NCBI GenBank assembly: GCA_030669305.1
Contig: DAOVDU010000002.1
Location: forward strand, 318-64,317
Source of the DNA: Candidatus Aminicenantes bacterium
Lineage (GTDB): Bacteria; Acidobacteriota; Aminicenantia; Aminicenantales; Aminicenantaceae
Reading direction: 5' to 3'
Length of the DNA stretch: 64,000 nucleotides
The translations under genes were made by a program, and so were the position numbers. The notes below the pieces were generated by a model. The model was given only the letters and a program-made list of their open reading frames with translations. It did not search any database and was not told where the DNA came from. The stretch's first letter is position 1. Every line of letters begins with the position of its first letter. Below, piece by piece: positions 12,306 to 63,290 of the stretch.

Positions 12306-14015
12306 ATGTTAAAGAAACTATTGGCTATTTTAACTTCTGTTTATTTGTTATTCATTGTCATCGGGTGTACTAAGGCATACAAAGGAGAGCCTGCAGATCT
12401 TGTGATTAAAAATGCTGAGATTGTCACAATCGATAAGGACAATCCCAGGGCTGAGGCTGTTGCTGTAAAAGGAGAGTTCATAATCGCCGTGACTTCAAAC
12501 AAAAAAATTAATCAGTATATCGGCGAGGGAACCACAAAAGTGATCGATGCCAAAGGGCGCCTATTAGTTCCTAGTTTCAATGATGCACATATCCACTTCA
12601 CAAGCGGTGGACGCTCAATGATGAATCTGGATTTTCGCTATGTGCACGATGTAGAAACTATTAAACAGATGGTCAAGGAAAAAGTCGCACAGTCTAAACC
12701 CGGAGAGTTGATCGTGGGGAGAGGCTGGGAACACGAAACGTTTCCGGAAAAAAAATGGCCTACAAAAGAGATCCTAGATGTCGTTGCTCCTGACAATCCA
12801 GTAATGCTCAGCAGGGCAGACGGACATTCAGTCTGGGTGAACAGCTACATTATAAAAAGGTCCGAAATAACTAAAGATACACCTGATCCTCCAAACGGCA
12901 CGATTGTCAAAGATCCTGTTACTGGTGAGCCTACTGGCATATTTAAAGAGGGAGCAAGGCGCTTGTTGAAGGTTGAAAGTTCAGTTAAACTTACATCTGA
13001 AGAACAGGAAGAACGTGCTGACAGAGGTTTAGAACTTGCCCTGGGTGCGGCCAGGCGGACCGGCGTGACGAGCATCCAACAACTCAACGGAGAATATGAA
13101 CGTTTTCAAAGATTCAAGGACGAAAGTAAGCTTACCTTACGGGTTACTTTTAACATGGCCATGCCCGTAGATGAGCAAGGCCTTAAGAGGCTTGATGAAC
13201 TTCGCAAACGGTTCCCGCAAGAAAACAACTGGATTCGATTTGGATACTTGAAGATTTTCATCGACGGAACGCTTGGTTCAGGCACAGCTCTGATGTTTGA
13301 GCCTTTTGAAGATGACCCCAGCACAAGCGGGCTGCCTATGATGCCTTACGAGGAATACGAGCGGAGGATTGTTGCCGCAGATGCCATGGGATTTCAGACT
13401 GGCACGCATGCGATCGGCACAAAAGGAAATAACTGGGTTCTCAATGCTATTGAAAAGGCGCTGGAGGTTAACGGAAAACGTAACAGCCGCCACCGCAGCG
13501 AACATGCGCAGATTTTACTGCTCTCTGATATACCGCGATTTGCAGAGCTCGGTGTAATTGCTTCTATGCAGCCGACCCACTGCATCACTGACAAGCGGTT
13601 TGCTGAGAAGAGAATCGGCATGGAGCGGTGCAAAGGGGCCTATGCCTGGCAGAAATTTCTGGATGCTGGAGTTCATATTGCCTTTGGTACCGACTGGGCG
13701 GTTGAGCCGATCGATCCGCTGGAAGGACTTTATGCTGCTGTTACGAGAAAAGACCGTGCAGGCGAGCCGGGCGAAGGGTGGTTCCCGGATCAGAAACTAA
13801 GTATGGAAAAGGCAATCGAACTCTATACGCTTGGTTCTGCTTATGCCGAATTCATGGAAGACCGCAAAGGTATGATAAAGGTCGGGTACTTTGGGGATAT
13901 GGTCATTTTTAACAATGACTTGATGACTATTCCACACGATGAGATCATGCCTTCAAAAGTGGATTATACTATCGTGGGTGGCAAAATCGTCTTCAAAAGG
14001 GAAGGAGTAAAGTAA
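12306..14015 (+). CDS. Amidohydrolase-family metal-dependent hydrolase (amidohydrolase_3-like), lipoprotein
   Basis: VPSFNDAHIHF metal-binding HxH motif. Lipobox VIGCT. 569 aa. Confidence 0.85.
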   Translation: MLKKLLAILTSVYLLFIVIGCTKAYKGEPADLVIKNAEIVTIDKDNPRAEAVAVKGEFIIAVTSNKKINQYIGEGTTKVIDAKGRLLVPSFNDAHIHFTSGGRSMMNLDFRYVHDVETIKQMVKEKVAQSKPGELIVGRGWEHETFPEKKWPTKEILDVVAPDNPVMLSRADGHSVWVNSYIIKRSEITKDTPDPPNGTIVKDPVTGEPTGIFKEGARRLLKVESSVKLTSEEQEERADRGLELALGAARRTGVTSIQQLNGEYERFQRFKDESKLTLRVTFNMAMPVDEQGLKRLDELRKRFPQENNWIRFGYLKIFIDGTLGSGTALMFEPFEDDPSTSGLPMMPYEEYERRIVAADAMGFQTGTHAIGTKGNNWVLNAIEKALEVNGKRNSRHRSEHAQILLLSDIPRFAELGVIASMQPTHCITDKRFAEKRIGMERCKGAYAWQKFLDAGVHIAFGTDWAVEPIDPLEGLYAAVTRKDRAGEPGEGWFPDQKLSMEKAIELYTLGSAYAEFMEDRKGMIKVGYFGDMVIFNNDLMTIPHDEIMPSKVDYTIVGGKIVFKREGVK

Positions 14016-14052
14016 AGTAATAAAATTCCTATACGAATTTCCAAATGCCAAA

Positions 14053-14130
14053 CAAGCATCAAAATCCCAATGACCAAAACTAAAAAAAATTAAGATAATT
14101 AACCTTGTTTTGTAATCTTAGTAATTGAAA
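14053..14130. repeat. 78-nt repeat, copy A (second copy at 22951-23028)
   Basis: caagcatcaaaatcccaatgaccaaaactaaaaaaaattaagataatta..cttgttttgtaat.ttagtaattgaaa is near-identical at both sites. Each copy lies just 3' of a minus-strand gene stop. Confidence 0.8.
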
Positions 14131-14141
14131 CCGGCTTATTC

Positions 14142-14903
14142 CTATTTTACGATTTTTCCTTGAAGGATAAGGATCAAGGCTTTATCACCACCGTCAAGCT
14201 TGGAGACACCAACCACAGTCCTTTCTCCACTTTTTATTGTCAAAGGAGTATTAATAAGAGTTTGATATTTTTTTATTCCTTCATGGAAATAACCTGTAAA
14301 CTGCCTTAACCTCAATTCTAACTGAAAAACATCTTCTTTCTCTTCCCGGACATAACGAGGTACCAATCTAAGCTCTAAATCCAGGTCAGATCCGCCAATA
14401 CGGTGATCAGAATATCCTCCATCCTGAACTCTTAGGAAGGAAGAACCAACTTTATTGTAGTATTTGTAGCTTAATACTTTTTTTAATTCTTTTATCAGAG
14501 GATCAGATTCTAATTTCTTGTCTTGTTCCTTTGCCTTGAGAAATCGGGAAACATTGGAAGCATCCTTTGAACTTTCCCCTATCCCTAAAATCAGGTCCAC
14601 AGTGAACAGTATGTCTACAGGCTTGACGTCGATTTTCTTGAGGAGCGCAAGCATCTTCTCAACAATCTCCGGTGTATCCTGAACCGTAATTATATTCAGC
14701 TCACTCTGGATTCTAATACGGCCGAAGCCTAAGCTTTGATAACTCTGAAGAAGTTCATAGGCCTGTCTTGCCTTGATATATTTAAGCTTAACAAATTCCG
14801 TCTTCAGTTCGGGTTTTTTAGCCTGTCCGGATGAAGCATAGACATTTAAAGAAGCTCCAGCCAAAAAGCAAAGCACTAAAAGGCCTGCTAAAAATTTCTT
14901 CAT
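14142..14903 (-). CDS. Secreted hypothetical protein, possible secretin-N/NolW-like fold
   Basis: Signal peptide. The segment LKYIKARQAYELLQSY...IITVQDTPEIVEKMLALLKKID resembles secretin N-domain patterning (weak). Last gene of the ECF sigma operon. Confidence 0.4.
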   Translation of the reverse strand: MKKFLAGLLVLCFLAGASLNVYASSGQAKKPELKTEFVKLKYIKARQAYELLQSYQSLGFGRIRIQSELNIITVQDTPEIVEKMLALLKKIDVKPVDILFTVDLILGIGESSKDASNVSRFLKAKEQDKKLESDPLIKELKKVLSYKYYNKVGSSFLRVQDGGYSDHRIGGSDLDLELRLVPRYVREEKEDVFQLELRLRQFTGYFHEGIKKYQTLINTPLTIKSGERTVVGVSKLDGGDKALILILQGKIVK

Positions 14904-15421
14904 TTTTTATCCTCCAAATCGAAATTTTTATTAAAGAACCAGACTATTTTTAGCCCGGTATCTTTTGAAACTATTGTCATGGAAATTATGTCCTGTTCTG
15001 ATTTATCCTTAAAACTTTCAAAGAGCTTAGCTTGGGATTCTGCCACCATCCTTGTTCCCGGGATTACTCCCTCTTTGTAAAAACCAGGTCTTATAACAAA
15101 AAAAGTAAGCACAACGGCAAAAACAGCCATCATCACATAAGCCCAGACTTTCCTGAATGGCCACAGAGCAAGAGGCGATAACTCTGGTTCTTTGTCTCCA
15201 ATGGCTATCTTAACAACCTGCTGCCATTCCCTATCTTCCCAATCTTCTCTTTCTTTTGCGAGCCATTCCTTTGTTTTCCCCAAAGACAAAACATAAGAAT
15301 CATATTCATTCCGGCACTCCGGACATTTTTCCATATGAGCTTTAACCTCTGATACTTTGGATTTAGAAATATCAGAACCTACAATCAGAGGAAGATAACG
15401 CTGGACCTTTTTGCATTTCAT
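14900..15421 (-). CDS. Anti-sigma factor, zf-HC2 type with one TM helix
   Basis: HMEKCPECRNEYD zinc-finger motif near the N-terminus and a central TM segment. Translationally coupled to the sigma factor by a 4-nt overlap. Confidence 0.7.
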   Translation of the reverse strand: MKCKKVQRYLPLIVGSDISKSKVSEVKAHMEKCPECRNEYDSYVLSLGKTKEWLAKEREDWEDREWQQVVKIAIGDKEPELSPLALWPFRKVWAYVMMAVFAVVLTFFVIRPGFYKEGVIPGTRMVAESQAKLFESFKDKSEQDIISMTIVSKDTGLKIVWFFNKNFDLEDKK

Positions 15422-15990
15422 CTTTTTACATCCCTTACCTCTACAGGATATATTTTTTCGAATTGTGTCTTTATTTTTTGCCTGGCACGTAACAGATTAG
15501 TCCGGACACTTACAGATGAGCATCCAAGAATCTCTGACGTCTCTTTTATGGAAAATCCTTCTCCGTCCCGCAGGATAAAAACAGCTTTTTCTTTAGGACC
15601 TAAATTTTGAAGGCAGGCCTTGATTTTATTTTTTATCTCTTTATTCAGAAGCTGTTTTTCAGGATCCTGGTTTATGCTGGCAGCCAGACTTTTCTGCCTC
15701 TCTACTATTTCTTCATACTTTTTCTTCTTTCTCAAAAAATCATAGGTGGAATTCACTGTTATTTTGTATATCCAGTTTTGGAAGCTTTCCCCTTTTTTAA
15801 ATTTATAAAGATATTTATAAATTTTAATAAGAGTATCCTGGCAGACCTCTTTTGCTTCTTCCAAATTTTCTGTCATTCGATATGCCATGTTCAAGATCCC
15901 CTGGCGGTAAGGCCGGAGAAGAATCTCAAAGGAAACATCGTCTCCTCTGAGGACTTCCTCAACCAGTTCATCATCATTCTTCATCCACAT
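15418..15990 (-). CDS. RNA polymerase sigma-70 factor, ECF subfamily
   Basis: Region 2 (LIKIYKYLYKFK...QNWIYKITVN) and region 4 HTH (FSIKETSEILGCSSVSVRTNLLRARQKI) are present. Confidence 0.85.
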   Translation of the reverse strand: MWMKNDDELVEEVLRGDDVSFEILLRPYRQGILNMAYRMTENLEEAKEVCQDTLIKIYKYLYKFKKGESFQNWIYKITVNSTYDFLRKKKKYEEIVERQKSLAASINQDPEKQLLNKEIKNKIKACLQNLGPKEKAVFILRDGEGFSIKETSEILGCSSVSVRTNLLRARQKIKTQFEKIYPVEVRDVKR

Positions 15991-16086
15991 TAATATACTT
16001 GTCTTTTGCTAAAAATGTTAACCTAAATTATTCATAAAAACTGCCGATGCCATAATTCATTCTCAATAATATAAATTCTTGAGTGT

Positions 16087-16638
16087 TAGAAAAGGGGTCG
16101 CGTCTCAACATTCAACATTTCTGAGAACGGGTTCAGGTCCCATTTTTCCATACAGAGATTTAATTCATTTGTAAGGGCTTGATTTATCAAGCCCGCCGTT
16201 TATGAATAAATCAAATCCAGACATGTTATCGAAATGTAGGTTTGATGAATCAAACCCCTATATAAGTTGTTGTATTTTGAGAAACATTCTCTTATTTTTT
16301 ATTTTTCCTTTTCCAATAATAATAAACCGGTATTCCCAGTGCGGTTAAAAAGATGCCGGCCAGAGCTTCAACGGGTTTTTCTATCAGCGTATTGAGAAGA
16401 ATGCCTAGTGAAGCGAAAATGAATATAATGGGGACTGCAGGATATCCCCAGGTCTTATACGGAAAGATAAAAATTTCCTTTTTGCGATAGCACCAATTCC
16501 TCGCCATTTTCCTTTATTTTCGTCAGCTGAAATCCTGAAGTGAAAATATCACACTCAAAACGGCAGCGTCAATTGCCAGTGCTCTCCCTTCTCCTCGGCT
16601 GCCATCAGAAGTTCCTGCTGGAAGACCCGAGGTGGAGG
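16087..16638. repeat. 552-bp segmental repeat, copy 1 (copy 2 at 22453-22950, about 90% identical, lacking an internal 54-nt block)
   Basis: The two copies were aligned by eye and are in the same orientation. The repeat contains the hairpin gggcttgatttatcaagccc and a decayed permease 3' end. Confidence 0.85.
16292..16507 (-). pseudogene. C-terminal fragment (71 codons) of an APC-family amino-acid permease
   Basis: ...YKTWGYPAVPIIFIFASLGILLN...GIPVYYYWKRKNKK is a typical APC-permease C-terminus. No upstream transporter body. The copy-2 counterpart (about 22640-22800) has an in-frame stop. Confidence 0.55.
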
Positions 16639-17033
16639 AGGGCGTTGTGCATGAAAAGTGAGGTTTCCTCCTCAATTATGGGAGGATGAGCAGAGTTTTG
16701 CTCTTCAAAACCGGAAAAACATGAATCCGGCGTGATGGCAAGAGTTTCTTTGTTGAGCTCTTCCTTGAGTCTGCCAAGGGTGCTCTCCCAGCGATCTTGG
16801 AATATGTCTCCCATTGCCGTTATTACCACATTGGGCGAGGAGTTGATACAGTCGATGGCTGTGCCTGTACCCCTGCCGCCGCAACCGATGAGACCAACCT
16901 GAATTTTATCCGAACCAGAAGCACGGAGAAAGCCTGTTCTGGACACGGCGGCAGCCAGGGAAATTACTGAGGTTACTTTTATAAAGTCACGTCTGGACAT
17001 ATTCTGTTTTGTTTCCTTGCTTTTCTTATTCAT
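16605..17033 (-). pseudogene. N-terminal fragment of a Tat-exported Gfo/Idh/MocA-family oxidoreductase
   Basis: MSRRDFIKVTSVISLAAA Tat signal plus Rossmann motif VGLIGCGGRG. Terminates after 142 aa where the 552-bp repeat begins. Full-length members are about 400 aa. Confidence 0.55.
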
Positions 17034-17055
17034 GATCTCTCCTTAAAAATATATG

Positions 17056-17410
17056 GGTCAATGTTTCCTAAAAATTATCACAAGCCCGGTAGGCTTCAAT
17101 CACTGCCTTCTCTCCCTCCTTACCGGGCAGGCTTTTGCCATGATCCATGCACAGAACATCATCATACCCTTTGTTGTATATGTGCTTAAAAATATTCTTG
17201 TAATTAATCTCACCAGTGGTAGGCTCCTTACGGCCCGGTGTGTCGCCTAAATGGAAGCTGGCGATCTCCTCCCAGGCCCTGCACTATCAAAGTCCATTTT
17301 GCATAAACACGTTTGGCTGTCTCTATTGCTGCTTTCATCTTCTCTGCCAGCATCTTACGTATCTCTTTGTCCTGGGCGTATCCGGCAAATCTTTTTTTTG
17401 CTCTCTCACT
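17056..17410 (-). pseudogene. Frameshifted C-terminal fragment of a sugar-phosphate isomerase/epimerase (xylose-isomerase-like TIM barrel)
   Basis: Minus-strand translation gives ...EEIASFHLGDTPGRKEPTTGEINYKNIFKHIYNKGYDDVLCMDHGK* in one frame. The upstream part (…AKRVYAKWTLIVQGLGGD) is in another frame. Confidence 0.45.
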
Positions 17411-17712
17411 ATTCCCTCCTTATCATTTTGATTTAGATGTATTTAATAATGACCCATTATCACGAGTCATTCATTTTACGTAAGACAGAGTGACAGCCAA
17501 TCCTGTCACGGGAAAAAAGCTGCTTACTATGTGCAATTTCTTCTTGCTTTTCTGGATGGGATAATAAAAAATATAATGGCTATTTAGCCATCTAATGCAC
17601 GAATTTTTTTTAAACTCATCAAAGTCATATCAGAGAAAGGGGAAACTGATACCAAGAAAATACCGCTGATTGATAAGTTAAAATAGAAAAAACAACTAAT
17701 TGGAGGGAAGCA

Positions 17713-19650
17713 ATGAAGGTTTGGCGATTTGTTATCCTGTCTATGCTTTTTCTTTTTGCATCGAGTGTTGCTCTCGAAGCAGCACAGTTGACTCCAGAAC
17801 AAACTATGAAAAGGCGGCAGCTCTACGATCTTCGTCTTTCTCCCGATGGCTCCAGGATTGCACTGACAGTATCAGAGCCAGTTGAAGGAACCGAGCAAAA
17901 CAGAGACATCTGGGTCTTTGACATAAAGAGCCGCCATCTCAGGAAGTTCACAACTTCTCCAAAATCCGACACCCGGTCCCGTTGGTCTCCAGACGGAAAA
18001 ACGCTGGCGTTCCTGTCAGGACGATCCAAAACCACACAGATTTACATTTTAAGTATGCTTGGAGGCGAAGCAGAGGCCTTGACTGAAACCAAGACAGCAA
18101 TCCGAGCTTTTGAGTGGTCACCCGAGGGCAAACAGATTGCTTATCTCGCCACAGAGCCAGAAACGGAAGAGGAGGAGAAAAGGAAAAAAGATAAGGACGA
18201 TGCCAGAGTCGTAGATCTCGACGACAAGCATCCTCAACTCTGGATTTTAGATGTGGAATCGCGAGAAGTCCGGCAGCTTACCTATGGAAAATGGCGAATT
18301 TCAGAATTTAGCTGGGTGCCGCAGGGAGACCATCTTGTCATATCCGCAACAGATCATCCTCAACCCGAGCTGTTCACAAACCGGATCTATAGGGTCCAAG
18401 TGAGTGATGGAGAAATGAAATTGGTCTCAAGTCCACGCGGATCTTTCCATAGTCTGAAAGTTTCACCAGACGGAAAATTCATCGCCTATGTGGGGGCTCG
18501 TGTTGATGCTCCCATTGCCAGAGACATCTATCTCCAGCCTATTCCAGATGGGCAGCCACAGAATCTTACGAGTTCTTCAATCGATAGACAGATTAGGTCT
18601 TTTTTCTGGCGGAAGGACAGAAGCCTTCTGGCTCTGGTTCAGGCAGGGTTTAACAGCACGTTTTATGCCATTACACAAGACGGCAAGGCAGAAAAACTGG
18701 AAGGCTTTGATGTGAGTCCCTCGAGTTCGTTTGTAGTTGGCCCCGGGCTGCTGGCCTTTGTGGGTCAGTCGGCAACAAAGGCCCCAGAGCTATGGATTTC
18801 ACCACGGCCCGGGCATGCCGAACAGGTCTCTCACTTGAACAAGGAGTGGGACGAAATCGTTCTCACAAAACCTGAGATGCTTCGCTATTCGAGCTTCGAC
18901 GGAACTGAAATCGAAGCCACACTCCTAAAACCTGCAGGGTATAAGGAAGGCAGCCGGGTTCCTCTGTTAGTGCTGATCCATGGAGGTCCGTCAGGAGTTT
19001 GGTCCGACAGGTTCGAAGCTTGGGGCCAACTGCTTGCGGCTCGAGGTTTTGCCGTGCTCTATCCCAATATCCGGGGCTCAATCGGGTACGGCAACGCTTT
19101 TTTAGAGATGAACCGAAGGGACTGGGGTGGTGGCGATTTTAAGGACGTGATGGCAGGTGTTGATTTCCTGATCAAGCAAGGTATTGCTGACCCGGAACGG
19201 CTGGGGGTCGGTGGTTGGTCCTATGGAGGCTACATGGCCGCATGGGCTGTGACCCAAACACCAAGATTCAAGGCGGCTATCTCGGGAGCTCCGATGACCG
19301 ATCTAGCCAGTGAATACGGGACTGAATCCAGCTCCATCAACTCTTACGATACATGGTATCTCGGCACGCCCTACGAAAATCTGGACCTGTTTATCGAAAG
19401 GTCTCCCGTAACCCATGTCAAAAATGTTAGAACACCAACTCTTATTCTTTGTGGCGGGAAGGATACTACGGATCCCATTGGGCAGTGCCAACAGTTTTAT
19501 CGCGGGTTGAAGCGCTACGGTGTTAAAACCGAATTCGTCATATATCCGCGTGAAGGCCACGGAATCCGCGAGGAAAAGCACCGGATAGATTTGCTCAATC
19601 GTGTCCTCGGCTGGTTTGAAAAATATTTAGGAGGGGAGATCAGTCCTTGA
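17713..19650 (+). CDS. S9 family serine peptidase (prolyl oligopeptidase/acylaminoacyl-peptidase type) with N-terminal beta-propeller
   Basis: TolB-like SPDG repeats at the N-terminus. GGWSYGGY nucleophile motif and C-terminal D...H. Signal peptide. Confidence 0.85.
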   Translation: MKVWRFVILSMLFLFASSVALEAAQLTPEQTMKRRQLYDLRLSPDGSRIALTVSEPVEGTEQNRDIWVFDIKSRHLRKFTTSPKSDTRSRWSPDGKTLAFLSGRSKTTQIYILSMLGGEAEALTETKTAIRAFEWSPEGKQIAYLATEPETEEEEKRKKDKDDARVVDLDDKHPQLWILDVESREVRQLTYGKWRISEFSWVPQGDHLVISATDHPQPELFTNRIYRVQVSDGEMKLVSSPRGSFHSLKVSPDGKFIAYVGARVDAPIARDIYLQPIPDGQPQNLTSSSIDRQIRSFFWRKDRSLLALVQAGFNSTFYAITQDGKAEKLEGFDVSPSSSFVVGPGLLAFVGQSATKAPELWISPRPGHAEQVSHLNKEWDEIVLTKPEMLRYSSFDGTEIEATLLKPAGYKEGSRVPLLVLIHGGPSGVWSDRFEAWGQLLAARGFAVLYPNIRGSIGYGNAFLEMNRRDWGGGDFKDVMAGVDFLIKQGIADPERLGVGGWSYGGYMAAWAVTQTPRFKAAISGAPMTDLASEYGTESSSINSYDTWYLGTPYENLDLFIERSPVTHVKNVRTPTLILCGGKDTTDPIGQCQQFYRGLKRYGVKTEFVIYPREGHGIREEKHRIDLLNRVLGWFEKYLGGEISP

Positions 19651-19700
19651 AATTTGAATAATTCAAGATTCATAATTCAAGATTCAAGGGCTAACTCCAT

Positions 19701-19925
19701 TTGATAGGAGAATTCAAGATGCCGTTTTTTAGCATTTCAAAAATAGGGGCCTATGAGACCTGCCCTTTGCAGTATAAATACGCCTATATCGATAGAATAA
19801 AAGTCGAGGCAGAGGATACTGTCGAAACATTTCTCGGAAATATAGTGCACAAAGCGCTGGAGAAGCTGTACAGGGATAAGAGGTTCGAAAAATTGATGTC
19901 CCTGGAGGAGATGAGAGAGAATTGA
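19701..19925 (+). pseudogene. N-terminal fragment of a PD-(D/E)XK (Cas4/RecB-like) nuclease family gene
   Basis: MPFFSISKIGAYETCPLQYKYAYIDRI is the characteristic N-terminal motif of PD-(D/E)XK nuclease family proteins. The ORF stops after 74 aa and is followed by about 450 nt with no ORF. Confidence 0.45.
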
Positions 19926-20374
19926 AACAATTGAGGAAGTTTGGGGAGAAAGAAAAAGGATACAGGTTGAGTGTTTCGAAGAAATAAACTTTAGTTATAA
20001 ATTCTGGCGAAACAATATATAATAGAAAGGAATAATGGGATTATCGGTTCGAGGGAAAAGAGATTGTAGGATCTTCCCTCAAATTTGGAAAAAAAGTGAT
20101 TCATATGGCCTTCTTCAGGATCACCGAGAGTGAAAAGGTGGGAAAAATAGCTGGCTACAGGAGAAGAAGGGGATTTAGAACTGCTTAGTGAGCTAAAATG
20201 GAATAACTTGAAAAGAAGGGCGATTACTCTTATGTAATGTTCTTAAAGTGGCAACTTTACCCCCAAAATTGCTATTCTAAGGCCATATTTGACATAAAAT
20301 TTAGCTTTAACTCCGGAAAAATCAATGAGTTAGCGCAGTCTGACCGCATATCTTAATACGCATATCTTAATAAA

Positions 20375-21067
20375 ATGATTGGAGATGGAAAGAACAACGG
20401 AACCATCAGAATCTATAAAGTTCTTCAATTTCTGGAGAAAGAGCTTAAGGGGCCGAAGCCAGGTTTAGAAGCGCAACTTAAAATGATAACCAATCCCAGG
20501 TCTGGACATAAAGTGTATTATGAGGTGGAAGATTCGTGCAACAAGGCAGGAGTCCTTGTTCTACTGTACCCGTGGATGGACAGGCTTCATCTAGTGTTAA
20601 CTCGCCGGACTAAGCGTGTGGAGTTTCACCAAGGACAGATTTCCTTCCCAGGCGGACGTCAGGAAAAGGGGGAAAGCTTCGCACAAACAGCTCTCAGGGA
20701 AGCCCAAGAGGAGCTCGAAATAGATTCGAGCTCGACCCGAATTCTGGGGGAATTGACTCCTCTCTATATCCCGCCGAGCAACTATTGCATCTATCCAGTT
20801 GTAGCAACGATTGATGTGCGTCCTGATTTTCAGCCTTCAGCACTCGAAGTGGCTGATGTTATCGAGATCCCTCTGGATCATCTGGCCGATCCAAAAAACG
20901 CCCGGAAAGAAATGCGGACCATCAGGGGTGCTGAAGTCGAGGTCCCTTTTTATTCATTCAAAGAATATAAGATCTGGGGTGCCACCGCAATGGTATTGGC
21001 AGAGTTTGTCGAATTGCTAAAAAGGCACAAAGGAGTTAGGAGGAATAATGAAAACCAAAACCTTTAA
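20375..21067 (+). CDS. NUDIX hydrolase, CoA-pyrophosphatase (NudL)-like
   Basis: Nudix box GGRQEKGESFAQTALREAQEELEI. Upstream LLTRR..V..HQGQISFPGG is typical of CoA pyrophosphatases. Confidence 0.8.
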   Translation: MIGDGKNNGTIRIYKVLQFLEKELKGPKPGLEAQLKMITNPRSGHKVYYEVEDSCNKAGVLVLLYPWMDRLHLVLTRRTKRVEFHQGQISFPGGRQEKGESFAQTALREAQEELEIDSSSTRILGELTPLYIPPSNYCIYPVVATIDVRPDFQPSALEVADVIEIPLDHLADPKNARKEMRTIRGAEVEVPFYSFKEYKIWGATAMVLAEFVELLKRHKGVRRNNENQNL

Positions 21068-22424
21068 AATCATAATCTTTCTACTTTTTATAATGTGTTA
21101 TGTCTTTCCGGACATGGCTTTTGCAGAGGCAGAAAAAACACCATCATCCGCAGTATTTGATAAGATTCTAAAAATTATAGAAAAGGAGTATCCATCGCTC
21201 GAAACCCTGTACAAACATCTGCATGCGAATCCCGAGCTTTCTTTACAAGAAAAAAACACATCCAAACGGATCGCTTCAGAATTGGAACAGGCCGGCTACG
21301 GAGTAACCAGGAATGTCGGAGGTTATGGTGTGGTGGGAATAATGAAGAATGGAGAAGGTCCGACTGTTATGATCCGTACAGATATGGATGCACTTCCGAT
21401 CGAAGAGAAGACTGGGCTCCCTTATGCCAGTAAAGTCCGCGCCAAAGATGCACAAGGCAGGGAAGTCTGCGTGATGCACGCATGCGGCCATGATATCCAC
21501 ATGACAGTGTTCATCGGCATGGCGAAACTGCTCAGCCAGATCAAAGACCTATGGAAAGGGACGCTGGTCATGGTGGGACAACCTGCAGAAGAAAGCGGCG
21601 GAGGGGCAAGATCCATGATTGCCGAAGGACTTTTCACCCGTTTCCCCCGGCCGGATTATGCCCTCGCCCTGCATGATGCTCCATTCCCTGCTGGGATGGT
21701 TTCCACCTGTGAAGGCTATATTTTGGCCAATGTCGACTCTGTTGATATCACTGTCCGTGGAGTCGGTGGACATGGAGGGATGCCTCAAGATACAAAAGAC
21801 CCGATAGTCATGGCATCCCAGCTGGTGCTGGCACTACAAACCATAGTTAGTCGAGAAATGGATCCGAACATTCCCGCTGTGGTGACAGTAGGTTCAATTC
21901 ATGGAGGCACCAAACACAATATCATTCCTGATGAAGTTTTTCTTCAGCTCACTGTTCGTTCTTATGGAGACAATGCCCGTAAGAATATTTTGGCCTCTAT
22001 CAAGAGAATCACAAAGGGTATTGCTGTTGCTGCCGGTGTACCTGAAGACCGGATGCCGATCGTTAAAGTTGGAGAAATTCATACGCCTGCCACATACAAC
22101 GATCCAGAATTAACCCGAAGAATAACCAAGGCCTTTCGTGCCATCCTGGGGGATAAAAATGTGTTTACTAGCGAACCCGCCACGGCCGGCGAAGACTTTG
22201 CAGAATACGGCCGTGTAAAACCACGGATTCCTATATGCATATTCTGGCTTGGAGCTGTGGACTCAAAGCTCTTTTTGCGTGCTCGAATACCTGGAGAGCG
22301 GATTCCGACACTTCATTCTCCTTATTGGTCACCGCTTCCCGACATGACGATCAAGACAGGGATGAAAGCCATGGGCGCGGCTGTGTTGGAATTGATGGGA
22401 GATTTCATAGACAAGGAAAGGTGA
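21048..22424 (+). CDS. M20D-family amidohydrolase/peptidase (hippurate-hydrolase-like), secreted
   Basis: MHACGHD metal-binding motif. Signal peptide. 458 aa. Confidence 0.85.
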   Translation: MKTKTFKIIIFLLFIMCYVFPDMAFAEAEKTPSSAVFDKILKIIEKEYPSLETLYKHLHANPELSLQEKNTSKRIASELEQAGYGVTRNVGGYGVVGIMKNGEGPTVMIRTDMDALPIEEKTGLPYASKVRAKDAQGREVCVMHACGHDIHMTVFIGMAKLLSQIKDLWKGTLVMVGQPAEESGGGARSMIAEGLFTRFPRPDYALALHDAPFPAGMVSTCEGYILANVDSVDITVRGVGGHGGMPQDTKDPIVMASQLVLALQTIVSREMDPNIPAVVTVGSIHGGTKHNIIPDEVFLQLTVRSYGDNARKNILASIKRITKGIAVAAGVPEDRMPIVKVGEIHTPATYNDPELTRRITKAFRAILGDKNVFTSEPATAGEDFAEYGRVKPRIPICIFWLGAVDSKLFLRARIPGERIPTLHSPYWSPLPDMTIKTGMKAMGAAVLELMGDFIDKER

Positions 22425-22452
22425 AAAGATGAATCAAGCTCTGGATAAAGTG

Positions 22453-22950
22453 TAGAAAAGGGGTCGGGTCTCAACATTAGACATTTCTTAGAATGGGTTC
22501 AGGTCCCATTTTCCCATACAGAGATTTAATTCATTTGTAGGGGCTTGATTTATCAAGCCCGCCGTATCCCTACATAAGTTGTTGTACTTTGGGAAACATT
22601 CTCTTGTTTTTTATTTTTCCTTTTCCAATAATAATAAACCGGCTTTCCCAGTGCGGTGAGAAAGATGCCGGCCAGAGCTTCAACGGGTTTTTCTATCAGC
22701 GTATTGAGAAAAATGCCTAGTGAAGCGAAAATGAATATAATGGGGACTGCAGGATATCCCCAGGTCTTATACGGAAAGATAAGAATTTAATTTTTGCGAT
22801 AGCACCAATTCCTCGCCAATTTCCTCTATTTTCGTCAGCTGAAATCCTGAAGTGAACATATCACACTCAAAACGGCAGTGTCAATTGCCAGTGCTCTCCC
22901 TTCTCCTCGGCTGCCATCAGAAGTTCCTGCTGGAAGACCCGAGGTGGAGG
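22453..22950. repeat. 552-bp segmental repeat, copy 2 (498 bp)
   Basis: Aligns base-for-base with 16087-16638 except for a 54-nt deletion and scattered substitutions. Confidence 0.85.
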
Positions 22951-23028
22951 CAAGCATCAAAATCCCAATGACCAAAACTAAAAAAAATTAAGATAATTAG
23001 ACTTGTTTTGTAATTTTAGTAATTGAAA
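22951..23028. repeat. 78-nt repeat, copy B, directly abutting copy 2 of the 552-bp repeat
   Basis: 49 nt identical to 14053-14101, then near-identical for the rest. Confidence 0.8.
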
Positions 23029-23071
23029 TTTGTTTGGAATTTGGGATTTTGATTTTGGAATTTCATTTATA

Positions 23072-24838
23072 TCATTCCAGCGTAATTGTTTTTTCGATTT
23101 TTCCGGCATGCCTGGATTGATATTTTATTGTGACTTTTCCTTTACCCGAAATCAGGAATTGATGTTCCACTTTTCCGAAGCCGGGGATAGTCAAAAATTG
23201 AAGCTCTGGCCGGAATTTTTTATATACAACCTGGTTTCTGTAGATGTTCGTTAGCTTGCCTCCTGCTGCAACTTTAATGTTTTTGCCTGAAACAGTCAGC
23301 ATATCCTGAGCGTAAAGTTTGACTTTCTGTGCATGAAAGCTCATGGTTGGGATAGCTTTTGAATTGTGGAGTCTTGTGCGGATCCTGTAGAGATTCTTTC
23401 CTGCCTTTTTTATCTCAAAGACATCCAGGCTTACTTCAGGAGTGTGTTTTGCTGAAAAGATAATAGCAGCGGCATTACGATGAACCATGTCCTTTAACAT
23501 GAAAGGAGCAGGTAAACGGGAACTCATCTTGATCCAGCCTCCAATTTCAATATCAACGTATGTTGGGTGTTTATAAGGTTTCCACGGTTTAAACAGTTCT
23601 CCCTGAGCAAGGTGGTCATTGAATTTTAGCCTTTCTCTTTCAAACTCGTTGCCTCCTCCAAAAAACATCTCCTCCTCGGTCTGTGGTTTTGTTTTTTTCG
23701 CTTCTTTTATGCTCTTAAAAGTCTCAGCTGTGGCCTGAAACAATTCTCCTACAAAACCGTACGCTCCATTTATCATAAACATCCATTCTGAAAATTCACC
23801 GTAAGTTGCATACATGTCTTTCCAGCCGATGATATAACGGTATCCTGGAATAATCCGCTCAGATTGCTCTCCAAGATAATCATACACGGCAACATCCTGT
23901 GGAGGATACGCTCCCTGGCCTTTAGTGCTGGGTCCACGTACAAAGAGTCCACCTGAATTGTGGAAAGCCCATACCATGCAAATGTTGGGCCGTTTTCGGA
24001 TGTATTTTCCTATGGCCTTGATTCCAGTACCTGAAAAGGGATAATCACCTGCACCTTGCTGCACATACTCAGGCGCCCAGTCATAACCCCAGTTCCTGTT
24101 ACCATCCACATAGCCTTCAGAATCTTCGTTAATCTTCCCATCGCCGTCATTATCAATTCCCTCCTGACCGAGGATTGTCCATTCTCCTTTTTTGCCGGGC
24201 TTTACACGGATCATCAACCTGGGATCTTCTGGATCTGTCTTAAACTCTCCGAAAGGATCACGTTTCCTCATTGTGCAAATATTTCCATCCCCATCGAGAT
24301 CATCGGGAAAATCTTCATCTACCAGACCGTCTCGGTCATCATCCTTGGGTATGCGCAGGCTGCGATTGCTGCTCGGAGTATTGGCATCTTCAAAAAAATG
24401 AACGCGGCCGTCCACATTGACAACCGGAATCACATAAAAACATTTTTTATCTACAAGTTTTGTTATTTCATCATTCTTTCCATAATTTGTCAGGAGATAA
24501 TTGAGCAGATAGAGGGCCACTTCTCCTGCCTGAATCTCGTTTCCGTGAATATTGCCATCAACATAGATCCCGGGTTTGTCCAATTCCCTCCCGGTTTTGG
24601 GGTTATTGACCGTCAAAGCATAGATTTCCCGTCCTTCTTCGCTCTTCCCGACCATATCAAGCTTGGTCAAGTGAGGATAGGCTTTATTAAGTGCCTTAAC
24701 AGCTTCAACAACCGTCTCATAGGTGTAGTAATTATCGAAGCTGAGTGGTATGGTCACTTTATGTTTCTGATTACTTGAAAAATAAACAGCTGACAGGGAA
24801 AAAATCATTATGATTAAAAGAATAAATATTCTTTTCAT
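23072..24838 (-). CDS. M14-family zinc carboxypeptidase with Asp-rich Ca-binding-like inserts
   Basis: DGNIHGNEIQAGE (HxxE zinc site). TSP3-like DDDRDGLVDEDFPDDLDGDGN and DNDGDGKINEDSEGYVDGN inserts. Likely start MKRIFILL at 24838 (signal peptide). Confidence 0.8.
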   Translation of the reverse strand: MKRIFILLIIMIFSLSAVYFSSNQKHKVTIPLSFDNYYTYETVVEAVKALNKAYPHLTKLDMVGKSEEGREIYALTVNNPKTGRELDKPGIYVDGNIHGNEIQAGEVALYLLNYLLTNYGKNDEITKLVDKKCFYVIPVVNVDGRVHFFEDANTPSSNRSLRIPKDDDRDGLVDEDFPDDLDGDGNICTMRKRDPFGEFKTDPEDPRLMIRVKPGKKGEWTILGQEGIDNDGDGKINEDSEGYVDGNRNWGYDWAPEYVQQGAGDYPFSGTGIKAIGKYIRKRPNICMVWAFHNSGGLFVRGPSTKGQGAYPPQDVAVYDYLGEQSERIIPGYRYIIGWKDMYATYGEFSEWMFMINGAYGFVGELFQATAETFKSIKEAKKTKPQTEEEMFFGGGNEFERERLKFNDHLAQGELFKPWKPYKHPTYVDIEIGGWIKMSSRLPAPFMLKDMVHRNAAAIIFSAKHTPEVSLDVFEIKKAGKNLYRIRTRLHNSKAIPTMSFHAQKVKLYAQDMLTVSGKNIKVAAGGKLTNIYRNQVVYKKFRPELQFLTIPGFGKVEHQFLISGKGKVTIKYQSRHAGKIEKTITLE

Positions 24839-35244: not shown

Positions 35245-35369
35245 TCGATTACTCCTTAAACAGAAGATATTTCACAATAATAGCTTTAGATAGATTGGAT
35301 GTCAAAAAAATAAAACTAAATTTCAAAAAATAAATGAATAGCAATTAGTGAAAAGCTCAAATCTGATTT

Positions 35370-35505
35370 CAGTTAGTCTGTTACTCGGTTAATCAGTTAA
35401 TCAGTTAGTCTGTTAAATATTTTAATTAAAATAACAGACTAACAGACTAACCGATTAACAGTTCGTTTTATCGCATTTTTAACTAGACAAACCAGATAAA
35501 CCAGA
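35370..35505. repeat. Composite inverted array of 8-bp TAAC-core repeats (YNGTTANT x6 / ANTAACNG x4) around a palindromic centre, followed by the caaaccagataaaccaga motif
   Basis: cagttagt ctgttact cggttaat cagttaat cagttagt ctgttaaa tattttaattaaaa taacagac taacagac taaccgat taacag. Member of a family also at 57262-57532, 63148-63276 and 49921-49965. Confidence 0.8.
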
Positions 35506-43489: not shown

Positions 43490-43574
43490 TGGGCAGAGCG
43501 GGACTCGAACCCGCACTCCTTCAACAGGAACTAGGTCCTAAGCCTAGCGCGTATGCCAATTTCGCCACCTGCCC
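43490..43574 (-). tRNA. tRNA-Leu, anticodon TAG (class II with long variable arm)
   Basis: Minus-strand sequence GGGCAGGTGGCGAAATTGGCATACGCGCTAGGCTTAGGACCTAG..GCGGGTTCGAGTCCCGCTCTGCCCA folds as a cloverleaf. Anticodon loop is CTTAGGA. T-loop is GTTCGAGTC. 7-bp acceptor stem. No encoded CCA. Confidence 0.8.
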
Positions 43575-43819: not shown

Positions 43820-43900
43820 GTTTTGAGATTTGAGTTTATTTTACCTTAAACCTTCAACATTAAACCAAATATGTTTTGATTTTCTGCTTACGGCTTAAGA
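43820..43900. repeat. About 80-nt 3'-flank repeat, copy 1 (copy 2 at 45011-45099)
   Basis: gttttgag(atttgag)tttattttaccttaaaccttcaacattaaacc...aaatatgttttg.ttt.c..tacggctta occurs immediately 3' of both 43904-44911 and 45101-46513. Confidence 0.75.
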
Positions 43901-45010: not shown

Positions 45011-45099
45011 TTAACAAGTTTTGAGTTTATTTTACCTTAAACCTTCAACATTAAACCTTAAACTAAATATGTTTTGTTTTTTCGGTTTACTACTCACGG
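45011..45099. repeat. About 80-nt 3'-flank repeat, copy 2
   Basis: See 43820-43900. Confidence 0.75.
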
Positions 45100-57104: not shown

Positions 57105-57261
57105 CTATTATTGCTCCTATTTTAAAATATAAATTCTATAAGCTCCATTGTTAATTTTTCGTAGTTCATAGGCAAAATAGGAAAAGATTGCCACTTTTTA
57201 AGATTATCAGGATTTTTATCTTATCTAAATTAGATTTTTAAGTCAATCTTATCCTTTTTAC

Positions 57262-57532
57262 CAGTTAGTCTGTTAGTCGGTTAATCAGTTAATCCGTTAG
57301 TCTGTTTATCTGTTAATAAGTTTAATTCATATAATTGATAAAAAAGAAATTATATCAAAATGACGATATCAATAATTACCTATTATCCCTACAAATGGAA
57401 GAAGACCCAAATAAGATAACCGACTAACAGTCTAACCGATTAACAGTCTAACAGTCTAACTGATTAACTGACTAACCGTCTAACCGATTAACTGACTAAC
57501 AGTCTAACTGATTAACTGATTAACCGATTAAC
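57262..57532. repeat. Largest inverted array of 8-bp TAAC-core repeats: 7 units, about 100-nt AT-rich spacer, then about 15 inverted units
   Basis: Left arm: cagttagt ctgttagt cggttaat cagttaat ccgttagt ctgtttat ctgttaat. Right arm: gataaccg actaacag tctaaccg attaacag tctaacag tctaactg attaactg actaaccg tctaaccg attaactg actaacag tctaactg attaactg attaaccg attaacaa. Confidence 0.85.
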
Positions 57533-57537
57533 AAATA

Positions 57538-63276: not shown

Positions 63277-63290
63277 AAATAAGTTTTGAG

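What the first reader, a model, noticed from the sequence alone, without database searches (positions are those of the whole stretch)
14053..23028. Permuted repeat arrangement: [78-nt]-ECF operon-[552-bp] at one site versus a seamless [552-bp][78-nt] joint at the other
At 22951 the 552-bp repeat is fused without a gap to a 78-nt repeat (...ggtggagg|caagcatcaaaatccc...). The only other copy of that 78-nt sequence (14053-14130) lies on the far side of the ECF sigma / anti-sigma / secreted-protein operon, whose other flank is copy 1 of the 552-bp repeat.

The 22950/22951 joint is therefore exactly what circularisation or tandem duplication of the segment 14053-16638 would create. That segment contains the ECF module. 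Possible explanations are a past tandem duplication with subsequent deletion, an excision/reintegration event of the sigma-factor cassette, or recombination between dispersed repeats.

The DNA between the two sites (16.6-22.4 kb) is rich in gene remnants.
Basis: seen in the sequence. Interest (0 to 1): 0.7.

Follow-up and report, generated by a model that had tools for sequence, protein, structure and literature searches.

The report
Nested repeats at a strain-variable rearrangement hotspot
The permuted repeats are real, but they are scars of successive DNA insertions and duplications at a fragile hairpin between two genes of an uncultured Aminicenantes bacterium, not the ends of a mobile sigma-factor cassette, so this is ordinary genome plasticity seen in unusual detail.

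Summary
Repeat A is 78 nt (14053-14130 and 22951-23028, 75/78 identical). Repeat B is 552 bp at 16087-16638 and 498 bp at 22453-22950 (95% identical, one 54-nt indel). B2 abuts A2 with no gap, and the same joint occurs in an independent metagenome contig.

The ECF-cassette reading is not supported.
- A is the 5' arm plus loop of a stem-loop that natively sits between the convergent amidohydrolase and M14 peptidase genes. One related contig joins amidohydrolase-A-arm-M14 directly.
- The ECF operon (14132-16047) is a copy or relocation from a conserved native locus (FBPase, M23 | ECF | M28, Na/Ala symporter) that carries neither A nor B.
- In sister strains the ECF block is followed by its native upstream flank, not by B.
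- B flanks a separate 5.8-kb block running from the TAT-signal ORF to the M20 gene.

At least seven structural alleles of this locus exist among strains 96-99% identical to the window. Several breakpoints lie at the edges of the stem. The 64-kb window encodes no integrase or transposase.

Best reading: nested insertion-plus-duplication events at a fragile hairpin, followed by recombination between the resulting repeats. Interest is low to moderate.

The parts
12306..14015 (+). Amidohydrolase gene, left anchor of the variable locus. It is convergent with the M14 gene in the 'empty' allele.
   Evidence: Pfam Amidohydro_3, E = 1e-117. Adjacent to A in L025, L026/L027 and L028-L031.
14053..14130 (+). 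A1, the 78-nt repeat. It is the left arm (14058-14070, ATCAAAATCCCAA) plus the loop of the native intergenic stem-loop. Its right arm is missing because the ECF block begins at 14131/14132.
14132..16047 (-). ECF block: a 253-aa Secretin_N-like protein (14142-14903), a zf-HC2 anti-sigma factor (14900-15421), an ECF sigma factor (15418-15990) and about 57 nt of promoter region. This is the segment homologous to the native locus in L010.
   Evidence: 95.9% identical to L010 8857-10769 and nothing else of L010 matches the window. Pfam and NCBIfam hits.
16048..16086 (.). 'p': 39 nt shared with sister strains L029/L030. After it the window continues with B1, whereas L029/L030 continue with the native upstream flank U.
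16087..16638 (+). B1 (552 bp). Sub-parts: a 54-nt segment absent from B2 (16200-16253); a C-terminal remnant of an APA-family amino-acid permease on the minus strand (16292-16507, 71 aa); and a 17-mer, ATCAGAAGTTCCTGCTG (16604-16620), shared with L029/L030.
16639..22452 (+). Block N (5.8 kb) enclosed by B1 and B2. Contents: a 142-aa ORF with a TAT signal, probably a truncated 5' gene fragment (16605-17033, minus strand, whose 3' end runs into B1); S9 peptidase (17713-19650); PD-(D/E)XK fragment (19701-19925); NUDIX (20375-21067); M20 peptidase (21048-22424).
   Evidence: Pfam. The same block is in L001-L004, L021, L026/L027 and L032.
22453..22950 (+). B2 (498 bp). Its permease remnant is broken by a stop codon. 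The 17-mer lies at 22916-22932.
22951..23028 (+). A2, the 78-nt repeat, contiguous with its native right arm. The left arm is at 22956-22968.
   Evidence: Present in L007 and L024.
23029..23071 (+). Right side of the stem-loop. The right arm TTGGGATTTTGAT is at 23041-23053. The M14 stop codon follows at 23072.
   Evidence: Inverted repeat I1. Fold with a 13-bp perfect stem, z = -2.7. Coordinates.
23072..24838 (-). M14 carboxypeptidase gene, right anchor of the variable locus.
   Evidence: Pfam Peptidase_M14. Found as the exact 588-aa protein in L007-L009. Adjacent to A in L024 and L025.

Best explanation
The region is a strain-variable rearrangement hotspot in the chromosome of an Aminicenantes species. 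Its centre is an AT-rich stem-loop (13-bp perfect stem, about 75-nt loop) between the convergent amidohydrolase and M14 peptidase genes. Repeat A is the left arm plus loop of that stem-loop.

**Step 1 (order inferred).** A 2.0-2.3 kb copy of the ECF sigma / anti-sigma / Secretin_N-like operon came from its conserved native locus and was joined in just 5' of the right arm. The sequence to the left of the insertion point was duplicated. That duplicate survives as 78 nt (A1/A2) in the window and as at least 205 nt, including the last 185 nt of the amidohydrolase gene, in sister strains.

**Step 2 (inferred).** In the window's lineage, the native flank that came with the operon was replaced by B. 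B is a mosaic containing a permease 3' remnant.

**Step 3 (inferred).** A 5.8-kb block (TAT-signal ORF to M20) was then added with B duplicated on both sides.

The seamless B|A joint is therefore where the inner repeat pair meets the outer one, at a reused breakpoint 5 nt outside the left arm of the stem-loop. It is not a circle or tandem junction of an ECF cassette.

**Mechanism.** The window encodes no recombinase. I infer illegitimate or homology-anchored recombination, or template switching, at a hairpin-prone site for the joins. Ordinary homologous recombination between A1/A2 and B1/B2, plus local deletions, would then produce the other alleles.

**Shown versus inferred.** Shown: the repeat anatomy, the alternative alleles, the native ECF locus, the hairpin, and the absence of recombinase genes. 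Inferred: the order of events and the molecular mechanism.
For: **1. A is native intergenic sequence.** L025 (a 65-kb JGI contig, 96-97% identical to the window) reads amidohydrolase-A-right arm-M14, with 14131-22950 absent. A plus the right arm folds into a 13-bp perfect stem.

**2. The ECF block has a conserved native locus.** L010 matches the window only at 14132-16047, at 95.9% identity. L010 and L011 are syntenic over about 20 kb around the operon. The neighbouring genes there are FBPase, an M23 peptidase, an M28 peptidase and a Na/Ala symporter.

**3. Sister strains show an earlier state.** L029/L030 (98.6% identical in the ECF block) read amidohydrolase-A'-ECF-p-U-17-mer-95 nt-amidohydrolase 3' copy-spacer-A'.
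- U is homologous to L010's native upstream flank (E = 1e-29).
- The amidohydrolase 3' copy is 96.6% identical to that strain's own gene end.
- The 17-mer reappears 18 nt before the right end of both B1 and B2, and in L024.

**4. B travels with M20, not with ECF.** This is seen in L021/L022, L026 and L001-L004; L032 keeps only the two ends of B. The B copy in L021 mixes B1-type and B2-type variants, so it resembles their common ancestor.

**5. The B|A joint is old and independent of the window assembly.** It is present in L024.

**6. Breakpoints lie at the stem edges.**
- The B|A joint is 5 nt 5' of the left arm.
- A 25-nt deletion in L028-L031 ends 1 nt before the left arm.
- The ECF insertion point is 5 nt 5' of the right arm, measured on the L025 allele.
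- An indel next to the right arm distinguishes the window from L025.

**7. No mobile-element signal.**
- The ORFs of 130 aa or more across the 64-kb window show no integrase or transposase domain.
- A was found in only four of 241 million metagenome records, all from this locus.
- There are no viral, plasmid or phage matches.
Against: - The 'empty' allele rests on one contig (L025). An assembler could have produced it by jumping between two A copies.
- The right-hand A' of L029 is seen for only 21 nt before the contig ends. What follows it (presumably the right arm and M14) was not observed.
- The B1|16639 joint has no independent confirmation.
- The single-B intermediate (amidohydrolase-A-ECF-p-B-A-M14) required by the model was not found.
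- The exact coincidence of the B1/B2 and A1/A2 homology ends at 22950|22951 is explained only by invoking breakpoint reuse at the hairpin. That is plausible but untested.
- No microhomology longer than 3-4 nt was seen at the joints.
- The breakpoint clustering is descriptive. It rests on a handful of events and has no statistics.
- I could not determine whether the window's genome also keeps the native ECF locus.
Confidence: 0.6

Rival explanations
1. Nested Campbell-type integrations. A circular DNA carrying a copy of A plus the ECF block, and later a circle carrying B plus the 5.8-kb block, integrated by single homologous crossovers. Each event duplicated its homology segment on both sides of the insert. 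The reverse crossovers would regenerate the shorter alleles. B2|A2 would then be sequence that was contiguous on the incoming circle.
For: Both inserts are flanked by direct repeats of 78 nt up to about 550 bp, as a single crossover predicts. L025 looks like the excision product of an A1 x A2 crossover. The left end of block N cuts into an ORF that retains only a TAT signal, as expected for a random genomic fragment.
Against: The model needs pre-existing circles that already join the homology segment to the insert, so it moves the origin problem back one step. No replicon or conjugation genes are in the inserts. It does not explain why B's right end coincides to the base with A's left end.
Confidence: 0.18
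2. A-ECF-B (14053-16638) is or was a mobile cassette, and its circularisation or tandem duplication produced the B|A joint. The second copy was later stripped of the ECF genes.
For: The joint has exactly the permuted geometry expected. The ECF operon has indeed changed location relative to related genomes.
Against: - At its native locus the ECF block carries neither A nor B.
- In L029/L030 it is followed by its native flank U, not by B.
- A is native to the amidohydrolase/M14 spacer and pairs with an arm that lies beyond A2.
- B lies next to M20 on contigs that show no ECF operon.
- A2 is followed by the right arm and M14, not by ECF, so an exact secondary deletion would be required.
- The copies differ by 4-5%, so they are not a live circle junction.
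Confidence: 0.05
3. Assembly artefact. The 64.7-kb MAG contig threads two or more co-existing strain alleles in series through shared repeats, so the arrangement does not exist in any one genome.
For: - Several alleles of this locus co-exist in public metagenomes.
- Short-read contigs from the same study break at or inside the repeats.
- The B1|16639 joint is unconfirmed, and its ORF was not on record.
Against: - No k-mer overlap exists that could falsely join the end of B to the start of A, or the end of B to 16639, so reads containing these joints must exist.
- B|A is present in an independent assembly of a different strain.
- B1 and B2 each carry their own variants, and these are reproduced at 99.6-100% identity in single-run Logan contigs linked to ECF and to M20 respectively.
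Confidence: 0.1
4. Site-specific capture. The A/right-arm hairpin is an att-like or attC-like site at which a recombinase encoded elsewhere inserts cassettes one after another. The recombinase could be a tyrosine integrase or a hairpin-recognising HUH/Y1 enzyme of the IS200/IS605 kind.
For: - There is a structured hairpin at the insertion point.
- The breakpoint is reused.
- An IS200-like Y1 transposase fragment sits at the B breakpoint in allele L026.
- The array has a cassette-like order: A-[ECF-B]-[N-B]-A.
Against: - No recombinase is encoded in 64 kb.
- The seven joints share no core sequence.
- The insert ends look arbitrary: one lies inside an ORF and one lies 10 nt after a stop codon.
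- The duplicated segments have different lengths in different strains (78 nt versus at least 205 nt).
- A is not found at any other locus.
- The Y1 fragment is truncated, is fused to a MacB-type gene, and occurs in only one allele.
Confidence: 0.05

Closest known systems
Tandem-duplication and rearrangement join-points at intergenic palindromic (REP-type) sequences in enterobacteria
   Same: An intergenic inverted repeat between convergent genes acts as a recurrent breakpoint. The products are direct duplications that can later recombine. No element-encoded recombinase is involved.
   Different: Within the data available, the hairpin here is a single-locus sequence and not a dispersed repeat family. 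Here the duplications enclose kilobase-scale foreign blocks and are not simple tandem copies.
Sequential displacement arrays built by homology-facilitated illegitimate recombination (T6SS effector-immunity arrays of Vibrio cholerae, PMC5361080; Rhs/CDI orphan arrays)
   Same: Successive insertions occur at one site. They leave orphaned 3' gene fragments (the amidohydrolase 3' copy in L029/L030, the permease 3' remnants in B) and repeated junction sequence. Many alleles exist among close strains. No integrase is involved.
   Different: The contents here are not toxin-immunity modules but a regulatory operon and peptidase genes. The anchoring homology is short (78-550 bp). The mechanism is inferred in that paper and here, and was demonstrated in neither.
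Merodiploids and tandem duplications generated by unequal crossing-over at repeats during natural transformation (Streptococcus pneumoniae, PMC3784515)
   Same: Direct repeats border a duplicated or inserted segment. The structures form and resolve by homologous recombination between the repeats.
   Different: Those duplications are 100-900 kb, lie between IS-derived repeats and are unstable. Here the units are 2-9 kb, the copies have diverged by 4-5%, and they are shared across samples. They are therefore old and stably inherited.
Integrative islands flanked by att direct repeats
   Same: An 8.9-kb strain-specific segment is flanked by 78-nt direct repeats. An apparently empty site exists in a related strain.
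   Different: There is no integrase or excisionase. The target is not a tRNA gene or a gene 3' end. The repeat length differs between strains. The insert is itself a mosaic with gene fragments at its edges.

Membership tests
Integron / gene-cassette array | IntI tyrosine integrase with attI next to the array | tested here: not met
   No integrase domain in any ORF of 130 aa or more across the 64-kb window.
Integron / gene-cassette array | Each cassette ends in a short attC hairpin site; cassettes are mostly single promoterless ORFs | tested here: not met
   The repeated unit B is about 500 bp and contains a permease remnant. The 'cassettes' are a 3-gene operon with its own promoter region and a 5.8-kb multi-gene block.
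Site-specific integrative element (genomic island, prophage, ICE/IME) | Flanking direct repeats (attL/attR), with an empty site in relatives | tested here: met
   A1 and A2 flank 14131-22950. L025 reads amidohydrolase-A-M14. Caveat: this is a single contig.
Site-specific integrative element (genomic island, prophage, ICE/IME) | Element-encoded integrase or recombinase and defined element ends | tested here: not met
   Genes inside are ECF sigma, anti-sigma, a Secretin_N-like protein, S9, NUDIX, M20 and fragments. The duplication is 78 nt in the window but at least 205 nt in L029.
Insertion sequence / MITE / composite transposon | Transposase or terminal inverted repeats, a short target-site duplication, and multiple dispersed copies | tested here: not met
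   No transposase in the window. A and B occur twice each and only here. The A 23-mer hits four metagenome contigs, all from this locus. No viral hits.
IS200/IS605 (Y1 HUH transposase) element | Y1_Tnp gene with subterminal hairpins; insertion next to a short target sequence without duplication | tested here: not met
   A truncated Y1_Tnp fragment (positions 1-88 of the 121-position profile) is found only in allele L026, fused to a MacB/FtsX gene. None is in the window. The inserts here are flanked by duplications.
Simple tandem duplication of 14053-16638 | Two head-to-tail copies with one novel joint, and homology continuing across the joint into the second copy | tested here: not met
   After B2|A2, homology to the first copy stops at 23028. 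The right arm and M14 follow, not ECF. The copies are separated by 5.8 kb of unrelated DNA.
ECF sigma / anti-sigma module | Sigma-70 regions 2 and 4 only, co-transcribed with an anti-sigma factor carrying a zf-HC2 (ZAS) motif | tested here: met
   Sigma70_r2, Sigma70_r4_2 and TIGR02937 hits. zf-HC2 at residues 3-37 of the next ORF, which overlaps the sigma gene by 4 nt.
Palindrome / REP-associated rearrangement join-point | Inverted repeat able to form a hairpin, located at the breakpoints | tested here: met
   13-bp perfect stem, fold z = -2.5 to -2.7. Three independent breakpoints lie within 5 nt of a stem edge, and an indel abuts the right arm. This is descriptive and has no statistics.
Palindrome / REP-associated rearrangement join-point | Member of a dispersed family of intergenic palindromes | tested here: not met
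   No other copy in the 64-kb window. Exact 23-mer hits elsewhere come only from this locus. The rest of the genome was not available.

The most novel reading that the evidence does not exclude
The stem-loop between the amidohydrolase and M14 genes could be a dedicated capture site. At it, a recombinase encoded elsewhere (hairpin-recognising, for example HUH/Y1-like or an integron-type integrase) would stack multi-gene cassettes, each ending in a B-type site. The ECF regulatory operon would be one such cassette that has recently spread among strains: it is 98.5% identical between strains whose flanking genes are about 96.6% identical. That would be an integron-like system for operon-sized cassettes in an uncultured phylum.
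Probability: 0.06. Interest if true: 0.6.

Novelty: new member of a known kind. Interest (0 to 1): 0.3.

Why it matters
The case shows, base by base, how a chromosomal hotspot in an uncultured Aminicenantes population accumulates and loses operon-sized blocks without any mobile-element genes. A conserved ECF sigma / anti-sigma operon was copied or moved from a core locus into a flexible, peptidase-rich region.

There are practical consequences.
- The nested repeats break short-read assemblies at this locus. Most public contigs carrying it are under 6 kb.
- MAGs of this group are therefore likely to under-report the region, including a possible second copy of the ECF operon.
- The case is a caution against reading permuted repeats as circle junctions when related alleles have not been examined.

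It does not open a new mechanism or resolve a long-standing question.

Tried and rejected
1. **Structured RNA, tRNA or terminator explanation for A or B.** Rfam at E <= 1 over 13500-23500 gave only a chance lncRNA hit. The only tRNA is at 43490. Consensus promoter and terminator scans were uninformative.

2. **'The last 36-46 nt of B are the start of an amidohydrolase pseudogene.'** A local alignment of the 46-mer against the amidohydrolase gene's 3' region scored 9, and 969 of 2000 shuffles scored as well. MAFFT placement was not convincing. Only the 17-mer is shared with L029/L030. Rejected.

3. **'The 142-aa ORF at 16605-17033 is a Gfo/Idh/MocA oxidoreductase N-terminus.'** This was my reading of the GCGGRG motif. 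Pfam, NCBIfam and PDB sequence searches support only a TAT signal. It is kept as 'TAT-signal ORF, probably truncated'.

4. **Exact-protein look-ups that found nothing.**
   - The 601-aa M14 ORF from its TTG start. The 588-aa version from the ATG start worked.
   - The amidohydrolase.
   - The 142-aa ORF.

5. **Ancestral full-length permease context.** The search with the 71-aa remnant returned only short or partial proteins. L023 shares only the coding 161 nt with B. L020 has a frameshifted full-length permease followed by an amidohydrolase gene, at only 69% nucleotide identity to the remnant. The origin of B's left and right parts remains unknown.

6. **Genome-wide relatedness of the window's genome to the L010 MAG.** This could not be measured. 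I therefore cannot say whether the ECF block was copied (both loci kept) or moved.

7. **Mobile-element association.** Plasmid, phage and viral-contig searches found no match.

8. **Common core sequence at the seven joints.** None was seen by eye.

Full report
**1. The observation**

The repeat finder reports the two repeats at the stated coordinates.
- A is 78 nt, at 14053-14130 and 22951-23028.
- B is reported in two pieces, 16087-16199/22453-22565 and 16256-16555/22568-22867. Direct reading extends it to 16638/22950.
- A global alignment of the B copies gives 474/498 identical positions and one 54-nt gap, at 16200-16253, which is present in copy 1 only. A is 75/78 identical.
- A 42-nt core of A occurs exactly twice in the 64-kb window, against 0.00 expected. 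A whole-window repeat scan finds no further copies of A or B.
- At 22950|22951 the text is ...CCGAGGTGGAGG|CAAGCATCAAAATCCC.... B1/B2 homology stops and A1/A2 homology starts at the same phosphodiester bond.

**2. Gene content and organism**

From left to right the locus reads as follows.

| Window coordinates | Strand | Feature |
|---|---|---|
| 12306-14015 | + | amidohydrolase |
| 14053-14130 | | A1 |
| 14142-14903 | - | Secretin_N-like protein |
| 14900-15421 | - | zf-HC2 anti-sigma factor |
| 15418-15990 | - | ECF sigma factor |
| 16087-16638 | | B1 |
| 16605-17033 | - | 142-aa ORF with only a TAT signal |
| 17713-19650 | + | S9 peptidase |
| 19701-19925 | + | PD-(D/E)XK fragment |
| 20375-21067 | + | NUDIX |
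| 21048-22424 | + | M20 peptidase |
| 22453-22950 | | B2 |
| 22951-23028 | | A2 |
| 23072-24838 | - | M14 peptidase |

- B contains a 71-aa ORF (16292-16507, minus strand) that is the C-terminal end of an APA-family amino-acid permease. In B2 the same frame is interrupted.
- The rest of the window is ordinary chromosome: parAB, rho, lon, tig, tRNA-Leu, alaS, dnaK-dnaJ-grpE-hrcA and many peptidases. No integrase or transposase domain was found.
- Close relatives are annotated as Candidatus Aminicenantes.
- The window's own protein is on record from an NCBI contig of 64,690 nt.

**3. Independent assemblies of the same strain**

Logan contigs from SRR26080958-SRR26080964 are 99.6-100% identical to the window. 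They confirm these links:
- amidohydrolase-A1-ECF-B1 up to 16324 (L005, L006);
- block N-M20-B2 up to 22636 (L001-L004);
- A2-M14 (L007-L009).

Each contig carries the copy-specific variants of its repeat, and each stops inside a repeat, as de Bruijn contigs do.

**4. The ECF operon has a different, conserved home in relatives**

- A scan of species-representative genomes with the 253-aa protein returned six loci.
- The closest, L010 (a Black Sea Aminicenantes MAG), matches the window only at 14132-16047, at 95.9% identity. tblastx finds nothing else of its 20.7 kb in the window.
- L010 and the more distant L011 are collinear over essentially the whole 20 kb around the operon. The neighbouring genes there are FBPase, an M23 peptidase, an M28 peptidase and a Na/Ala symporter.
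- The 253-aa protein has 818 homologues at E <= 1e-20, mostly in Aminicenantes, so the operon appears to be widespread in Aminicenantes.

The operon in the window is therefore a copy or relocation of a core operon. Its homology to the native locus ends 1-2 nt from the end of A1 and about 40 nt before B1. A and B are not part of what moved.

**5. Alternative alleles of the locus in strains 96-99% identical to the window**

An exact 23-mer of A hits four of 241 million JGI metagenome records, and all four come from this locus. Together with contigs found through homologues, they give the following alleles.

| Allele | Contigs | Structure |
|---|---|---|
| W | window | as described in section 2 |
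| E | L025 (65-kb contig) | amidohydrolase-A-right arm-M14; all of 14131-22950 absent |
| K | L026, L027 (two assemblies) | amidohydrolase-A(1-55)\|17464...M20-B(first 78 nt)\|truncated IS200-type Y1 transposase fused to a MacB/FtsX gene |
| F | L024 | GT4 glycosyltransferase ... right part of B (100 nt longer than in the window)\|A-right arm-M14, so the B\|A joint exists in another strain and assembly |
| G | L021, L022 | NUDIX-M20-B, with the 54-nt segment and an intact 69-aa ORF; its variants are a mixture of B1-type and B2-type states |
| H | L032 | 16650...M20-B, with about 385 nt of B deleted |
| J | L028-L031 | amidohydrolase-A'-ECF, with a 25-nt deletion ending 1 nt before the left stem arm |

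In L029/L030 the J allele continues to the right of the ECF block. The homology to the window stops at 16084 and is followed by these pieces:
- about 220 nt (U) homologous to L010's native upstream flank;
- the 17-mer ATCAGAAGTTCCTGCTG;
- about 95 nt of unknown origin;
- a copy of the last 185 nt of the amidohydrolase gene, the spacer and the start of A'.

This last copy is 198/205 identical to the same strain's genuine gene end. The 17-mer occurs elsewhere only 18 nt before the right end of B1, B2 and the B part of L024.

**6. What A is**

In allele E, and at A2 in the window, A is followed by TTGGGATTTTGAT. This is the perfect complement of ATCAAAATCCCAA at A positions 6-18. The predicted fold is a 13-bp stem enclosing about 75 nt, with z-scores of -2.5 to -2.7 on either strand of the window's A2 region (-1.6 for the allele E sequence). 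A1, cut off from the right arm by the ECF block, does not fold (z = +0.4).

A is therefore the left arm plus loop of a stem-loop native to the spacer between two convergent genes. It exists twice because DNA was inserted 5 nt 5' of the right arm (position measured on allele E) and the sequence to the left of that point was duplicated.

**7. Reconstruction (inferred)**

The simplest order consistent with all the alleles is as follows.

1. Start from allele E.
2. The ECF block, with its native flank U and a short segment beginning with the 17-mer, is inserted. At least 300 nt is duplicated: the amidohydrolase 3' end, the spacer and A. This gives the J state seen in L029/L030.
3. In the lineage of W and F, U is replaced by the body of B, and most of the duplicated amidohydrolase end and spacer is deleted. 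That leaves 17-mer + 18 nt | A.
4. The 5.8-kb block N is added with B on both sides. This gives W.
5. Later losses give the other alleles: K (deletion from 14108 to 17463 plus an IS-associated truncation of B), H (deletion inside B2), the 54-nt loss in the window's B2, and possibly E again through an A1 x A2 crossover.

Four observations fit this order.
- ECF-p-[U]-17-mer in J is collinear with ECF-p-[body of B]-17-mer in W.
- F keeps 100 nt that both B1 and B2 lack, so the B duplication came after that loss.
- The left end of N lies inside an ORF that retains only a TAT signal, as expected for an arbitrary fragment.
- Divergence between duplicate pairs (3.4-5%) is similar to divergence between strains (amidohydrolase 96.6-97.5%, M14 96.2-98%). 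These are therefore old, inherited structures and not live intermediates.

**8. Mechanism**

No recombinase is encoded in the window, the seven joints share no core, and the insert ends are arbitrary. A site-specific system is therefore unlikely.

Breakpoints recur at the stem edges:
- the B|A joint, 5 nt outside the left arm;
- the J deletion, ending 1 nt from the left arm;
- the insertion point, 5 nt before the right arm;
- an indel abutting the right arm.

I therefore favour illegitimate, homology-anchored or template-switch joining at a hairpin-prone fragile site. The resulting repeats would then supply substrates for ordinary homologous recombination.

The closest documented analogues are these.
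- REP-associated duplication join-points (from my own knowledge).
- Arrays built by sequential displacement with orphaned 3' fragments, attributed to homology-facilitated illegitimate recombination (PMC5361080).
- Repeat-mediated unequal crossing-over (PMC3784515).

A Campbell-type origin, with circles integrating through A and through B, gives the same end product and cannot be excluded.

**9. Why not the ECF-cassette circle**

That model predicts that A and B travel with the ECF operon and that the sequence after B|A is, or once was, ECF. The data show otherwise.
- The native ECF locus has neither repeat.
- Sister strains have ECF without B.
- B is seen next to M20 on contigs that show no ECF operon.
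- A occurs with neither ECF nor B.
- A2 continues into its own native right arm.

**10. Caveats**

- Allele E rests on one contig and could in principle be a path through two A copies.
- The second A' of L029 is seen for only 21 nt.
- The B1|16639 joint has no independent confirmation.
- The single-B intermediate was not found.
- I could not measure genome-wide identity to the L010 MAG, nor check whether the window's genome keeps the native ECF locus.
- The hairpin-breakpoint association is descriptive.

**11. Verdict**

This is a real and unusually well-documented structural-variation hotspot. It is explained by known kinds of recombination and is not a new mobile element. Interest is 0.3.

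Noticed in passing
window 35362-35480, 57246-57536, 63239-63294: Arrays of tandem 8-nt units (TAACAGTC / TAACCGAT / TAACTGAT and their complements). One pair of oppositely oriented arrays is separated by 159 nt (57271-57322 and 57482-57533). One array lies just upstream of the SDR/parA-parB region. Function unknown.
   Followed up: no
window 43826-43866 and 45017-45057: A 41-nt direct repeat (98% identical) brackets the gene at 43904-44911 (2,4-diaminopentanoate dehydrogenase-like), next to tRNA-Leu at 43490-43574.
   Followed up: no
window 14142-15990 compared with 12306-14015; loci L028-L031: Between the window and the L028-L031 strains the ECF block is 98.4-98.6% identical, while the adjacent amidohydrolase gene is 96.6% identical or less (92-95% in its 3' end). 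The operon may have spread between strains more recently than its flanks, or it is under stronger constraint.
   Followed up: partly
window 19090-19592 and about 19347-19432; loci L026/L027 and L002: The S9 peptidase gene is itself structurally polymorphic. Contigs L026/L027 lack about 500 nt of its 3' part, and Logan contig L002 lacks about 86 nt.
   Followed up: no
L016-L019 (81-aa ORF at L016 10001-10246); L020 9051-10357: Isolated C-terminal fragments of the same APA permease family recur in other Aminicenantes contigs. One is a stand-alone 81-aa ORF between a racemase gene and a 799-aa gene on contigs of up to 80 kb. Another is a frameshifted full-length gene followed by an Amidohydro_3 gene. 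A search with the 71-aa remnant returned no full-length protein.
   Followed up: partly
L026 592-2193 (minus strand): A truncated IS200-type Y1 transposase (profile positions 1-88 of 121) is fused in frame to a MacB/FtsX-type ABC permease, exactly where B is cut off after 78 nt in that strain.
   Followed up: partly
L010 about 8520-8600; L029 about 315-400 (locus coordinates): A stretch of about 80 nt upstream of the ECF sigma gene (...CCACAGCTTC...CTCGTGAATAATCCATGTTAAGTAAAAAATGAGATCAG) is conserved between the native locus and the relocated copy, although the surrounding non-coding DNA has diverged. It could be a regulatory element of the operon. It is absent from the window, where B1 replaces it.
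   Followed up: no
window 59878-61425: The DnaK ORF is only 515 aa and matches positions 1-512 of the 599-position HSP70 profile. It may be truncated or frameshifted at its 3' end.
   Followed up: no
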